Source: Eledone cirrhosa (Eukaryota). From it: a DNA stretch of 64,000 nt. The notes beneath the pieces are model-generated. The model was not told the DNA's origin, did no database searches, and worked only from the letters and a program-made list of their open reading frames with translations. The stretch covers positions 233,864,001-233,928,000 of the forward strand of contig OZ024740.1 in the NCBI GenBank assembly GCA_964016885.1. The letters run 5' to 3'. The translations under genes were made by a program, and so were the position numbers. This document shows, one piece after another, positions 7,715-63,563 of the stretch. The stretch's first letter is position 1. Each line of letters starts with the position of its first letter.

Positions 7715-7810
7715 ACCTCGACGGCAGAGCTCAAGCCGTTTCGACGGCTAATTCTGGACTAAATTAGAATTTTTAGCCTGGTGCATAAATAGCCGAACTT
7801 GTCAAGGGGT
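7715..7810 (-). ncRNA. Hammerhead ribozyme, U3-A8 core variant, full helix III
   Basis: ACCCC-TTGACAA-GTTCGGCTA...TAGCCGTC-GAAA-CGGC(ttgagctct)GCCG-TC-GAGGT. The related fragment at 50051-50082 has GGGGT, which completes helix I. Confidence 0.7.
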
Positions 7811-9916
7811 ACTTCCTTACATGGGAATATTGTAGTTGTCAAGAGGATTGGTTAACATTTGTTGTAAACACAAATAAGTCTATCATGGCATTTGGTGGGA
7901 GGTAGGGGTGGCTGAACTTGCCTGTAGAACAATGGGGGTGAGTGGAGCCGGTAAAGCGTTGATTGCAGGGGTGGGGGGGAACTGATGCTACAGAGGCCCG
8001 ATGGGCTGCATCGTGGTAGGCGAAAGGGGAAAAGCAGACGAGGAAGAAAATAGGGGCTGGAAGGAAGTGATAGAATGAGACAGGGGGAAGAAGAAGACAT
8101 AGAGGAAAAGAAAAGAGATACATCTACCTATGTAAGTTGGGGTTTCCCCTAACTTATTCGGCAAGTGTGTGTGTGGGGGGGGGGGGGTATCAGCCCTTGT
8201 CTACCCACCGGGGCCGTTATGAGGTTTGAGGGCGAGGTAAGTCCTACGCAATCTGTGTTTGCATGCGGTTACCAGTTCGCCTTTCTTGTTTAGGAGTTGG
8301 TCCTTCGAAAACACCATTTGTAATGTTTCCTCCGAGCATAAGTTACACGGATACCGTCCTCCCGTGTAAGAGTTAACTCTGGACAGTAAGCTCCAAGTGA
8401 GATTGTAGGTTATATTTTTATCTTGGAGGTCCCAGATGTGGCCCGAAAGTGTAGTGGCATGTCGCCGGACCGGGTTTCGGGAAGTATGTCGGTGTTGGTA
8501 GAGCCGGGTCTTGAAGTCACACGTGGTTAATCCTATATAAGCTTTGTTGGAGGTGTTCGTCCTCACGTTGCACTGGTAGATCACATTACGTTCTTAGCTT
8601 TTTTTGTTGTTGAGGGGGCACGTAGTTCTATCAGGGCAGTTACACCTCCAGGTCGGCTCTCCACTGATGTCTAGGTTGTTTCTTCCATAGGGGTTGAGTT
8701 TTTTGTTGTTTGAGGAGACGATGTTTTGTGCGAAGTTAGGTGTGGTGCTGTAGGAGAGTTTGATGGTGTTTTTATTGATTGTGTTGTGGTAGCGGTGTTG
8801 TAGTGGGAAGTGTTTTTCGAGGAGCCTAAAGAAGATTTTCCCGATAGGTGTTGCCAGGATTGAACCACGTTACGTTGCGTAAGCAGCGGTGTCGCCTGCT
8901 GGTTCCGCTAAGGGAAGCTGGATAAAAGGATATTTCCTCCCGGAAGCCACTCCGCTTGAGGGCCTGGTTGTAATGAGGCGCATGTTCGTCGAATATCTGC
9001 TCATTAGCGGACAAACGAGATATGCGGAGGGAGATGTTTTTAACCAGGTTAATGGTGATGTTTCTAGGATGGTTAGAGCGGCGGTAGATGTAGTGCAGGT
9101 TGTCGTTTCGTTTCCTATAAGGGTAGTACAGATCATTTTCGAGGTTAAGAGTAACGTCCAGGAAATTGACTCGGGTTAGGGACGTTTGTATGGGGATTTT
9201 AAATCCCCAGTCCCGGAAGAAGTTGATTAGTTGTTTACAGACCCGGTCTGTACTACTGGGGTTGTACCCTTTGAGGGTGAGGAGCCTATCATCCCGGTAC
9301 AATCCACCGCCGAATGCAGGAAACATTTCGGTGAGTTTAAATAGTAGGAATAATCCTATAAGATCTGTAACCTCGGCCGAATCCGTCGCGCCCATACTGA
9401 CGTCGAAGGGGTAGTCAGGAGCTCTCTTTATCCACTTGGAGTTGTCGAAAAGTAGGACTGTCTTCCTGGCATGGAGAATGATGGGTCAGTGATGGGTGTG
9501 AGTGTTTCGGCAAAGCCCAAGGCGGCCGTAAGGAGCGGTAAGGTAATATATGTATAGTAACTTATTAACTTATTAAGCTGTAATTGTAAGATAGCATTGT
9601 GATTTTTTTCTTCATTCCTCACTATCTAATTCTATATATATTTTTTATTTATTTCTATTATCTTTTATTATCTCCTACTCTCATTCGAATTACCTATTCT
9701 ATAACCTCCCTCCTCTATTTCATACACTATCCTTAGAATCTGCTGTATACATATCACTTTCAACGCTTGACCGGCTCCACTCCCCCCCCCCCCATTATTC
9801 TACAGGCAGGTTCAGCCACCCCTACCTCCCACCAAATGCCATGATAGACTTATTTGTGTTTACAACAAATTTTAACCAATCCTCTTGACAACTACAATCT
9901 TCCCATATAAGGAGGT

Positions 9917-10012
9917 ACCAGCTTGACAAGTTCGGCTATTTATGCACCAGGCTAAAAATTCTAATTTAGTCCAGAAATAGCCGTAGAAACGGCTTGAGCT
10001 CTGCTGTCGGGT
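9917..10012 (+). ncRNA. Inverted copy of the U3-A8 hammerhead (more decayed)
   Basis: TTGACAA-GTTCGGCTATTT...AAATAGCCGTA-GAAA-CGGC..GCTG-TC-GGGT. Confidence 0.55.
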
Positions 10013-11456
10013 TCATACATTCGTTGTCAGCTAATAGCTTTCCTCTTTTCTGTAATAAGCATTTGATGGGGATTTCTTGTTGCTGGATTCAATGGAAGAA
10101 TCATTCAAGGAGGGGTGTTATGAACTTTTCAGAACTCCATATCAGGCTTTTACTGTCGCTCGTCCCTTCTATGGTCTGTGTTTATCGTTTCATGTTCGCA
10201 TATACAACATTCTCAGTGAACAAACTTATTTTGCTTACGTATTGAAAATGTTCAAATGTTCTTGGCAGAGAGATCTATGTCAGCTCTAATTTCATGTTTC
10301 TTCTCTATTTCAATTGATATCTAAACAATATTGTTATTTCCATCGTTGTAAACCACGGCAAGATGGATTATAACTTTTTCTTCTGTTTCTTCACCGCTAA
10401 AATCCGGCTAATGTCCGATATTGATATGCATTTTAGATCCTGGCTATCCTGCTAATATGGGAAATATATCTTATTCACATTCCAATTCTTGTTAAAATTT
10501 CCAACAACACTGAGCAGCTTGCGAAGCCTTATATCCAGCTCATTCAGTTCTTGCATTGCTTCTTATCCCCTCCAATAAGCAATGTGGTGTACAATGCTTT
10601 GGTCAGGCGTTGGATAGCAGCTACTAGTGGTTATGGGACTTTAGCTAACTATAAAGCCCCTATAATCCACCCATGGTTGTCCAGCCAAGCTATTGAAAAG
10701 ATTATTTGGTTCTTTGCTGTATTTCCTGGGATCATTTTGTTATTTAGTAGCTGCTTCATGCAGCATTATATGTCCTTCTTTCTTGCTCAAGTGTTATGAT
10801 GTTATTGGTGGCATAATAATCCTGCGAGAACAGATTGAGGCACCCACTGTATAATTTGTACTGACTGTTCTGGTAGGCTAAAATCCTGTATCTACAAACT
10901 GTCTCTCTAAATTTTCTCTTAAGTGTTTCTGTTGATGTATAAAAGTGTTATCTGTTTTGCATTTCATAATCATAATTACATACACGCATGGTATCTGGAT
11001 GCATTATGTCTTGACAATTTCTTATCCTTGAATTAGTGTATATATATATATATATATATATATATATATATATATATATATATATATATATGTATATATA
11101 TATATATATATATATATATATATATATATATAAAGAATTAATATATCTACCGACATATGTCGGTAGATATATTAATTCTTTATAATTATCTCCAAATTAT
11201 TTGTTGAGCAATATATGCCGAAATTACTACTGTGACTGATAGTAGTGGCTAGGCTCTGTCTTAATAGCACCCCCACTCCAAGCTTATTAACCTCAGTGTC
11301 ACGTGATTGATTCTTTTGAATTTGCCACTTGACCAAGAAGGCAGTGAATTTTTCAATGGCTTGGAATCTAGCCCCACTCGCTTTTTCCATCCACTGGATT
11401 ATTTGTATATAAGTTCCCAGTGTCCCCGCATTGCCTGGAAGCTTAGCTGAGAATAG

Positions 11457-11535
11457 ACTCCCTGATGACGTAAGGCTTCTCTATAGTTATTACGTAACTA
11501 TATTTATCCCCTTACAGAAACTAATTAGTTGGAGT
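11457..11535 (+). ncRNA. Type I hammerhead ribozyme with extended helix II
   Basis: ACTCC-CTGATGA-cGTAAGG..[TATAGTTA-ttacg-TAACTATA]..CCTTACa-GAAA-CTAATTAG-TT-GGAGT. Helix I is a perfect 5 bp and helix III is palindromic. Confidence 0.8.
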
Positions 11536-62326: not shown

Positions 62327-62413
62327 CTGTTACGTATACATTACATATTATTGGTTTTATGGTAGCTTTCCTTCTGGGAGGATATTTCAGTCAATTTTAT
62401 GTTACACTTGAAG
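62327..62413 (+). CDS. SLCO/OATP transporter coding exon 4
   Basis: tttcag acceptor and G|gtaagt donor, phase 1 to phase 1. VTYTLHIIGFMVAFLLGGYFSQFYVTLE matches OATP TM5. Confidence 0.85.
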
Positions 62414-62996
62414 GTAAGTTTGATAATAATATCTCACACATAAGTGAATACTAAATTTCGAATTCTCTTACATCACGTTACTCTTAACAGAATACAATGG
62501 GATTCATTCGCCTCTCTCAGCTTTAACTATATAAATGTCGTGTGAGGTAAAACGGAGTTTTCATTTCTATCATTGCGGATGAAGACGATAATTCAGGTGA
62601 GGGTCAAAACCAACTCCATCACCACTAACTTAAAATACAAAATTATGTATTTACAATTTACAATAAATAATGTACCTTATGAAGATTAAGTTTTTGAAAA
62701 TCCGTATGAGATTTATATGGGATTGGTTATATTATATATTCATGTATATAAAAATCATTGATGATGATATATTACACACACACACACACACACACACACA
62801 CACACACACACACACACACACACACACACACACACACACACACACACACACACACACACACACACACACATATATATATATAGTAAATTTTATATTTATA
62901 TTTATATATATTTGATATAACTATAAATATGTAGGGTAGTACTAAGTACTAGCCTAAATGTTCTAAATGACTAGTTATACGTTTTCGACATTCCTT

Positions 62997-63045
62997 ATGA
63001 TCCGATGAATCCAGACTTCCCTCTGGAAGAAACAATTGTCAGCTA
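62997..63045 (+). ncRNA. Decayed hammerhead motif
   Basis: CCGATGA-aTCCAGA(cttccc)TCTGGAa-GAAA-CAATTG-TC, with a U4C change and poor helix I. Confidence 0.5.
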
Positions 63046-63495
63046 ATAAATGTTCTAAACTAAAATGTTATCGTTTTAACACTTTATATATATAAATATA
63101 TATATATATATATATATATATATATATATATATATATACATATATATATATATATATATATATATATATATATATATATATATATATATATTATTTAGAG
63201 TATACACTCAAAGAGTCATTCACAATTAATTAGCTCAAAGAAAGAAGCATTTCTGAGCCGTGCAATACAAGTTAATATAAATTAATATATGATAAACACC
63301 TAAGTGTTTGTATTGTAAAAGACAAAAGTTAGCTAGAATGAAACAAACTAATTCAAATAAATATAGCCTGCCTGTATCGATTTAAAAAATAATAAATCAA
63401 TATGCACAAACTCATATTGGCAAATAGCCGTGGTACCTAGACAAATTTAAATTTCAAAATTCAAACCTATTCCACAGATCAATCTGAACCTCAAA

Positions 63496-63563
63496 ATCCA
63501 AACATGTTTCGCAAACGATGGTATTAAAGTGAAATTATCGATTTTCTGTGCTTATCAATAGGT
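63496..63563 (-). ncRNA. U3-A8 hammerhead motif (relative of 48007-48075)
   Basis: CCTA-TTGATAA-GCA...TGC-GAAA-CATG-TT-TGG. Confidence 0.6.

What the first reader, a model, noticed from the sequence alone, without database searches (positions are those of the whole stretch)
7715..63563. Recurrent U3-A8 hammerhead cores (UUGANAA) in at least five unrelated repeat families
Seen: motifs at 7715 and 9917 (TTGACAA), 21269 and 21459 (TTGATAA), 28257 (TTGATAA), 39141 (TTGAAAA), and 48007 and 63496 (TTGATAA) have C3U and G8A together, followed by helix II, GAAA, helix III and NUH. Known: C3 and G8 form a Watson-Crick pair in the active HHR core, and the U3-A8 swap is a tolerated but less common natural variant. 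Inference: double changes in unrelated families reflect covariation rather than decay. A CUGANGA-only search would miss this whole class.
Basis: partly seen in the sequence, partly recalled or inferred. Interest (0 to 1): 0.8.

Follow-up and report, generated by a model that had tools for sequence, protein, structure and literature searches.

The report
Swapped and broken retrotransposon hammerhead cores
Several jumping-gene families in this animal genome end in a hammerhead self-cutting RNA motif with an already published U-A swap in its core, and two related lineages spread to hundreds or thousands of copies with cores predicted to cut poorly, which suggests that these elements likely keep the RNA fold but do not strictly need it to cut.

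Summary
All eight U3-A8 motifs are real type I hammerhead folds at the 3' ends of Penelope-like elements (PLEs) or of ORF-less 0.52-0.59 kb tandem units. U3-A8 is the family state, not decay: 97-99 of the first 99-100 listed copies in four families, and about 2,130 of 2,792 in the fifth. One family has a homologous C3-G8 sister, so a true double change is seen. But the variant is published for PLE hammerheads (Cervera and De la Pena 2014), this scan noted it before on other DNA, and the five families are at most four lineages. A sister of the 28257/39141 families (6,447 copies) has GCAA for GAAA. So the 3-8 pair is favoured in the long run, but PLEs with predicted crippled cores still multiplied. 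No cleavage or expression data were available.

The parts
7715..7810 (-). Family A hammerhead (U3-C7-A8, long helix II, 5-bp helix III, GUC site) in the 3' pLTR of a Hydra-type Penelope-like element; ends about 15 nt later in (TA)n
   Evidence: family patterns
8201..8593 (-). GIY-YIG endonuclease part of the broken family A ORF
   Evidence: Pfam GIY-YIG E 0.002, under the curated cut-off; 81-88% aa to other family A copies
8826..9485 (-). Reverse transcriptase part of the broken family A ORF
   Evidence: YRDD motif in the translation; tblastn to family A copies
9918..10013 (+). Family A hammerhead in the inverted upstream pLTR of the same insertion; decayed (C11.1A, helix I changes)
   Evidence: 5.9% apart from the 7715 copy
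21269..21359 (-). Family B hammerhead (U3-U7-A8, palindromic helix III), inverted partner of the 21459 copy
21459..21549 (+). Family B hammerhead, intact; family B is an ORF-less unit of about 585 bp found as tandem and inverted copies
   Evidence: (98 of 99 U3-A8)
28260..28298 (+). Family C minimal hammerhead (U3-U7-A8, ACCGGU helix III, 2-bp helix I, U.U at 10.1/11.1 in most copies) at the 3' end of a Neptune-type PLE
   Evidence: (1,465 copies; 97 of first 100 U3-A8)
39141..39176 (+). Family C2 minimal hammerhead (U3-A7-A8, ACCGGU helix III, 3-bp helix I), sister of family C
   Evidence: (12,247 copies; 99 of first 100 U3-A8)
48008..48074 (+). Family D hammerhead (U3-U7-A8, weak helix III, U17) in an ORF-less unit of about 520-555 bp
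   Evidence: (646 copies; 99 of first 100 U3-A8)
63497..63562 (-). Family D hammerhead, second subfamily (ACAUGU helix III)
2980..3057 (+).
28831..28875 (-). Canonical C3-G8 hammerhead in the 3' pLTR of another Hydra-like PLE (ORF 30696-32786, -); internal comparison
33531..33575 (+). Canonical C3-G8 hammerhead in the inverted pLTR of the same element

Best explanation
The motifs are type I hammerhead folds at the 3' ends of Penelope-like retroelements and of ORF-less tandem units that these elements likely mobilise; U3-A8 is the inherited core of at least four lineages and is predicted to replace the C3-G8 pair well enough for slow, likely dimer- or protein-assisted cutting of read-through transcripts, while cutting is likely helpful rather than essential. 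Shown: anatomy, location, family-wide U3-A8, helix covariation, a C3-G8 sister of family D, and two amplified lineages with an unpaired or altered core (597 C3.A8 copies in family A; 6,447 copies of family C4, 98 of the first 100 with A13C). Inferred: family A went U3-A8 to C3.A8 and back to U3-A8 on its master lineage; the fold stays under selection even when the core pair is broken; single-transition intermediates such as C3.A8 can be carried through active lineages, which is how C3-G8 and U3-A8 interconvert. Family A can fold as a monomer (5-bp helix III); B, C, C2 and part of D have palindromic helix III and would need two copies.
For: Family tallies. Sample scan with shuffles. Covariation: B and its sister family keep 55 of 55 cells paired with 4 of 11 pairs changed on both sides, 0 of 500 shuffles as high (5 sequences); A against A2 has one compensated helix II pair. 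D sister with C3-G8, about 70% alike over 240 nt plus the hammerhead region. C3.A8 copies flank PLE ORFs; on ORF DNA neither the C3 nor the U3 copies form one clade (p-AU 0.0006 and 0.0002); with the U3-A8 sister family A2 as outgroup both ORF and 3'-end trees give U3, C3, U3. 0 of 45 helix and invariant-core columns differ among nine subfamilies against 17 of 39 loop II columns; 0 of 45 against 28 of 261 among the four C3.A8 subfamilies. Literature passages: PLE minimal hammerheads cleave weakly and only as dimers; hammerhead mutants did not block PLE insertion in vitro and cleavage needed the PLE protein; Naiad PLEs thrive without hammerheads.
Against: No cleavage or RNA data for any copy. 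[quoted passage not shown] Predicted best folds of the window copies are mostly not the hammerhead fold (family A has a competing hairpin over GAAA, 0.8 to 8.8 kcal/mol better in four copies). A root on the youngest U3 branch is not rejected (p-AU 0.058), the groups were named after a first tree was seen, and template switching between subfamilies could mimic a reversion (mixed pairs at L103, L146). Independent origin of U3-A8 in B and D relative to A or C is not shown, since their mobilising ORFs are unknown.
Confidence: 0.65

Rival explanations
1. Strict catalytic covariation: every active family needs a Watson-Crick 3-8 pair and all mismatched cores are dead copies or passengers.
For: Paired cores dominate at family level: every other multi-copy family in the sample is C3-G8 or U3-A8; singles in B, C, C2 and D are at decay level; family A returned to U3.
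Against: 597 of 2,792 family A copies are C3.A8, 94 of the first 100 share G7, they form several ORF-bearing subfamilies and lie on the trunk; family C4 reached 6,447 copies with A13C.
Confidence: 0.15
2. The mismatched cores still cut: C3.A8 works as a wobble, or G7 takes the place of G8 with an extra A before helix II, or the PLE protein or a partner copy rescues it, so cleavage remains required.
For: C3 is amplified only with G7; all other core and helix positions stayed fixed through the C3.A8 phase; an extra nucleotide between 9 and 10.1 is usual in PLE hammerheads; protein-assisted cleavage is reported for one PLE.
Against: All single and double mutants of this motif other than the G-C swap were low in a complete scan of another hammerhead; U3-G7-A8 copies also exist, so the link with G7 may be simple ancestry; it does not explain A13C.
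Confidence: 0.25
3. The fold is kept only as a protein-binding or priming structure at the PLE 3' end; U3-A8 and later changes are stages of catalytic decay.
For: The most abundant U3-A8 families (C, C2, C4) have 2-3-bp helix I, a U.U pair or A13C; D lacks the 15.2-16.2 pair in most subfamilies; insertions end within about 20 nt of the motif in family A; no RNA reads began or ended at the cut site for the anole PLE.
Against: U4, G5, A6, A9, G12, A14 and the UH site are unchanged across all lineages, C3-G8 and U3-A8 exceed mismatches at family level, and D and its sister differ by the exact double change.
Confidence: 0.2

Closest known systems
U3-A8 minimal hammerheads of Cercyon PLEs in Schistosoma mansoni (Cervera and De la Pena 2014, PMC4209133; abstract, results, discussion read)
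   Same: Type I hammerheads in pLTRs, palindromic helix III for dimers, inverted pairs 100-700 bp apart, and the same U3-A8 core (about 1,300 hits against about 2,000 C3-G8 there).
   Different: Here U3-A8 occurs in two PLE clades plus ORF-less units, family A has a monomer-type helix III and long helix II, and amplified lineages carry C3.A8 or A13C, which the parts of that paper that I read do not describe; its supplement was not read.
Natural hammerhead core variants (Perreault et al. 2011, PMC3088659; section on core variation read)
   Same: Reports natural C3-G8 to U3-A8 covariation and a natural U10.1-U11.1 mismatch, as in family C.
   Different: Those are mostly single loci; no lineage history, and C3.A8 is not named in that section (supplementary figures not seen).
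Hydra-clade PLEs (Craig et al. 2021, PMC8557442; section 11 read)
   Same: Family A has RWR (RWK-like), DKT, a CxCX5C linker, a C-terminal GIY-YIG domain and (TA)n targets.
   Different: Described there with canonical hammerheads; family A has U3-A8 and C3.A8 cores. No tree with reference elements was built.
Non-LTR retrozymes of metazoans (Cervera and De la Pena 2020, PMC7229834; passages)
   Same: B and D are ORF-less tandem units with one type I hammerhead per unit.
   Different: Units are 520-590 bp against 170-400 nt, they form PLE-like inverted insertions in (TA)n, and circular RNA is not shown.
Anole Poseidon element PAc (Frangieh et al. 2024, PMC11167929; passages)
   Same: PLE with a hammerhead next to the insertion end; 3-8 pair tested by mutation.
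   Different: There dispensability of cleavage is an in vitro result with engineered mutants; here natural lineages offer genomic evidence for it.

Membership tests
Type I hammerhead ribozyme | Core N3UGAN7N8A, GAAA and UH with a Watson-Crick 3-8 pair | tested here: met
   U3-A8 in the majority of copies of A, B, C, C2, D; not met by the C3.A8 sublineage of A or by C4 (GCAA)
Type I hammerhead ribozyme | Three helices round the core, helix I open | tested here: met
   Clear for A, B, C2; marginal for C (2-bp helix I) and D (15.2-16.2 mismatch in most subfamilies)
Type I hammerhead ribozyme | Compensatory changes in helices | tested here: met
   4 of 11 pairs in B and sister, 1 of 18 in A and A2; small alignments
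Type I hammerhead ribozyme | Rfam RF00163 match at gathering score | tested here: not met
   No U3-A8 motif among 150 rows shown of 223; canonical neighbours reach only 31.7 of 34 bits
Type I hammerhead ribozyme | Site-specific self-cleavage after UH | not testable with these tools
   Needs an assay or RNA ends
PLE minimal hammerhead (Cervera 2014) | Position in the pLTR of an RT plus GIY-YIG element | tested here: met
   A, C, C2; no ORF found for B or D
PLE minimal hammerhead (Cervera 2014) | Short palindromic helix III for dimer formation | tested here: met
   B, C, C2 and one D subfamily; not A, whose helix III is a 5-bp hairpin
Hydra-clade PLE (family A) | RWK-like motif, DKT, CxCX5C linker, (TA)n target | tested here: met
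   Translations against the description; insertion ends
Hydra-clade PLE (family A) | Placement in an RT tree with reference elements | not tested
   No reference PLE proteins were fetched
Neptune-clade PLE (families C, C2, C4) | GxKF motif and CX2-5CxxC linker before GIY-YIG | tested here: met
   GLKFTP and CGHSNCGTC in L319; motif definitions from passages; no reference tree, so Nematis is not excluded
Non-LTR retrozyme (families B, D) | ORF-less tandem unit with one type I hammerhead | tested here: met
   Units of 583-585 bp and 523-555 bp
Non-LTR retrozyme (families B, D) | Unit size 170-400 nt | tested here: not met
   520-590 bp
Non-LTR retrozyme (families B, D) | Abundant circular RNA | not testable with these tools

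The most novel reading that the evidence does not exclude
This genome holds a natural knockout experiment on the Penelope hammerhead: an autonomous lineage transposed for several successive master elements with an unpaired C3.A8 core and then restored the pair, and another reached 6,447 copies with A13C, showing in vivo that self-cleavage is dispensable for transposition while the fold is not, and catching the single-mutant bridge between C3-G8 and U3-A8 in the act.
Probability: 0.45. Interest if true: 0.62.

Novelty: new variant of a known kind. Interest (0 to 1): 0.4.

Why it matters
The U3-A8 core itself is known and adds only a practical point: hammerhead counts based on CUGANGA miss a large class (about 23,000 exact-pattern copies in seven families here). 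The part that matters is the role of hammerheads in Penelope-like elements, which the papers read call unclear. Natural, highly amplified lineages with C3.A8 and A13C cores, next to near-identical paired relatives, give matched natural sequences for a direct test of whether cleavage is needed, and show a route by which an RNA active-site base pair can swap through a mismatched intermediate.

Tried and rejected
Rfam scan: dominated by (TA)n hairpins scored as miRNA families, no use for these motifs. First descriptor returned spurious G3/G8 hits in the 310-bp tandem; rejected. Five of the eight C3.A8 hits at the lowest threshold of the sample scan are one repeated non-hammerhead and several lone U3-A8 hits are chance-like; rejected. 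U3.G8 in family A (28 of 2,792, 27 with A7) was considered as a second amplified intermediate; the three sampled rows do not form a clade, so it is treated as decay. Two C3-G8 motifs with the C-type helix III were found; too few to call a sister family. Distant PLE ORFs could not root family A; A2 was used instead. Minimum-energy folding gave no support for the hammerhead fold in most window copies and cannot model dimers or the core. No RNA holder listed for family A, which says nothing on expression. Contigs of three public runs of one sample show C at position 3 in about 18% of depth and no listed change at position 8; this argues against an assembly artefact but may be the source sample, so it is not independent. 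Four papers were not held (Przybilski and Hammann 2007, Martick and Scott 2006, Arkhipova 2017, Scott 2013), so measured rates for C3.A8 and A13C are not cited; that G8A and A13 changes cripple hammerheads is partly recalled. Searches for prior print on mismatched cores or on hammerheads of cephalopod PLEs found nothing beyond the papers named; the library lacks most subscription journals, and no supplements were read. The host is not identified; a cephalopod is a recalled guess from the repeat landscape.
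Full report
Setting. The window lies on contig C1 of a 3.0-Gb animal genome, is rich in (TA)n and holds several broken Penelope-like (PLE) ORFs. The host is not identified.

Observation. A pairing-aware type I descriptor finds 4 U3-A8 motifs in the window against 0.07 per shuffle, 0 of 200 shuffles reaching 4. Rfam shows none of them in the 150 rows listed of 223.

Families. A (7805/9923) flanks an RT plus GIY-YIG ORF in the inverted arrangement usual for PLEs; its protein has RWR, DKT and CxCX5C and it inserts in (TA)n, as described for the Hydra clade. 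C (28264) and C2 (39144) end ORFs with GLKFTP and a CX4CX2C linker (Neptune type) and are sisters, about 55% aa and 64% nt alike. B (21355/21463) and D (48012/63558) are ORF-less units of 583-585 and 523-555 bp that occur in tandem and inverted copies. The eight motifs therefore stand for five families and at most four lineages; A and C belong to different PLE clades by motif, and C3-G8 families sit among the Hydra-like relatives of A, so U3-A8 likely arose more than once, but no reference tree was built.

Exact patterns with positions 3, 7 and 8 free gave: B 98 of 99 U3-A8; C 1,465 copies, 97 of the first 100 U3-A8, one each C3.A8, A3.A8, U3.U8; C2 12,247 copies, 99 of the first 100; D 646 copies, 99 of the first 100. 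Reversed control patterns gave 0. Listed rows are the first on contig C1, not a random draw. In D all 12 copies with C3 were listed: 9 are C3-G8 and 3 are C3.A8. The nine are a sister subfamily about 70% alike to D over 240 nt beyond the hammerhead, a direct double change within one lineage. In 1.2 Mb from 30 blocks chosen blind, the descriptor at score 24 found 90 hits: C3-G8 68, U3-A8 13, C3.A8 3, U3.G8 2, others 4; two shuffles gave 0, 1.5, 0 and 0.5 per run. Clustering showed more U3-A8 families; a sister of B keeps all 55 cells paired with 4 of 11 pairs changed on both sides while U3-A8 is fixed (five sequences). The descriptor misses C, C4 and part of D; direct patterns find 23 U3-A8 copies in the same sample.

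The exception. Family A has 2,792 pattern copies: 597 are C3.A8 (94 of the first 100 with G7), 65 lack A8 (28 U3.G8, 7 C3-G8, 30 others), and about 2,130 are U3-A8 by subtraction. C3.A8 outside G7 is at the level of background T-to-C change (1.6-4.9% per site in eight of nine subfamilies), but C3-G7-A8 is a lineage: it flanks ORFs and splits into several subfamilies (59 of 86 copies kept, the rest 5'-truncated). On ORF DNA alone (12 copies of at least 800 nt, duplicates and two poor rows dropped) neither the C3 copies nor the U3 copies form one clade (p-AU 0.0006 and 0.0002; groups named after the first tree). The older sister family A2 (149 pattern hits) is U3-A8. Rooted on it, the ORF tree and a 3'-end tree without the core columns both give U3 (A7/C7), then C3-G7, then U3 again (G7, U7); a root on the last branch is not rejected (p-AU 0.058). 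Divergence within insertions fits this order loosely (6.4%, 5.5%, 4.1%, 3.1%; 2, 2, 10 and 1 pairs). Template switching could mimic it. Across nine subfamilies 0 of 45 helix and invariant-core columns differ, against 17 of 39 in loop II, 7 of 18 in the tail and 112 of 195 upstream (inflated by indels); among the four C3.A8 subfamilies 0 of 45 against 28 of 261 (about P 0.006 by my arithmetic). Contigs of three public runs of one sample show C3 at about 18% of depth, so this is no assembly error, though not independent. A second case turned up among relatives of C2: family C4 has U3-A8 and GCAA for GAAA in 98 of the first 100 of 6,447 copies.

How it likely works. Shown: the fold sits at the element's 3' end; family A insertions stop about 15-20 nt after the predicted cut and run into (TA)n or into a tail. 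From the literature: PLE minimal hammerheads cleave weakly and as dimers through a palindromic helix III, one PLE hammerhead needs the element's protein, and its mutants did not stop insertion in vitro. Inferred: U3-A8 keeps the 3-8 pair and allows slow processing of read-through or tandem transcripts; this is favoured over long times (paired cores in every other family, return to U3 in A), yet lineages with an unpaired or altered core still copied themselves. Against simple functional equivalence, a complete pairwise scan of one hammerhead found only the G-C swap active at this pair, and predicted best folds of most window copies are not the hammerhead.

Comparison and novelty. U3-A8 in PLE hammerheads was published for Schistosoma mansoni, with the same remark that the standard descriptor missed it, and natural U3-A8 in 2011. 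Earlier notes of this scan report it on other DNA (none on this genome). Amplified C3.A8 and A13C lineages were not found in print, with the limits that four key papers were not held and no supplements were read. What I saw of each paper: PMC4209133 abstract, results, discussion and part of methods; PMC3088659 passages and section 8; PMC8557442 passages and section 11; PMC11167929, PMC9901934, PMC7229834 and PMC7151607 passages.

Verdict. Observation confirmed; interpretation partly supported. Known variant in a new host, with one new and testable twist. Interest 0.40.

Noticed in passing
G000, e.g. C1:3570678-3570706; loci in blocks L215-218 and L163-166: Family C4, a sister of C and C2 with a Neptune-type ORF, has 6,447 pattern copies with U3-A8 but GCAA instead of GAAA in 98 of the first 100.
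   Followed up: partly
window 2980-3057 (+): A ninth U3-A8 hammerhead candidate after a PLE endonuclease remnant (1176-1510); family state unknown.
   Followed up: partly
window 24808-27905: About ten copies of a 310-bp unit in an inverted-tandem array, 99% alike; shares DNA with a 330-bp U3-A8 hammerhead-bearing unit elsewhere but shows no clear hammerhead itself.
   Followed up: partly
window near 50000-50120; L002, L048, L094, L138 and many others: Family A is very often inserted as a tiny fold-back of only its last 60-80 nt, with the turn inside helix II, so the 3' half of the hammerhead is far more abundant than the whole motif.
   Followed up: partly
family A hammerhead, window 7715-7810: The strands either side of GAAA are complementary, giving a competing hairpin that hides GAAA; could be a folding switch.
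   Followed up: partly
window 4611(-), 49141(-), 53329(-), 60937(-), 50930(-): Further canonical C3-G8 hammerheads of other PLE families (50930 has a decayed G3).
   Followed up: partly
window 34431-38060 (+): Long open LINE ORF of 1,209 codons (endonuclease, RT, C-terminal zinc fingers by eye), apparently intact.
   Followed up: no
window 40270-42135 (-) and 55287-58264 (-): Helitron-like Rep/helicase ORFs by eye (Walker A GGTGKT).
   Followed up: no
window 6126-6650 (-): Mariner-like transposase remnant by eye.
   Followed up: no
window 46147-46596 (-) and 51923-52366: Exon-like pieces resembling an organic-anion transporter gene on the minus strand by eye, so many of the repeats may lie in its introns.
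   Followed up: no
window 23384-23448 (+): tRNA-like match (38.1 bits), probably a SINE head.
   Followed up: no
window 15004-15584: 36 copies of a 16-bp unit inside a LINE remnant.
   Followed up: no
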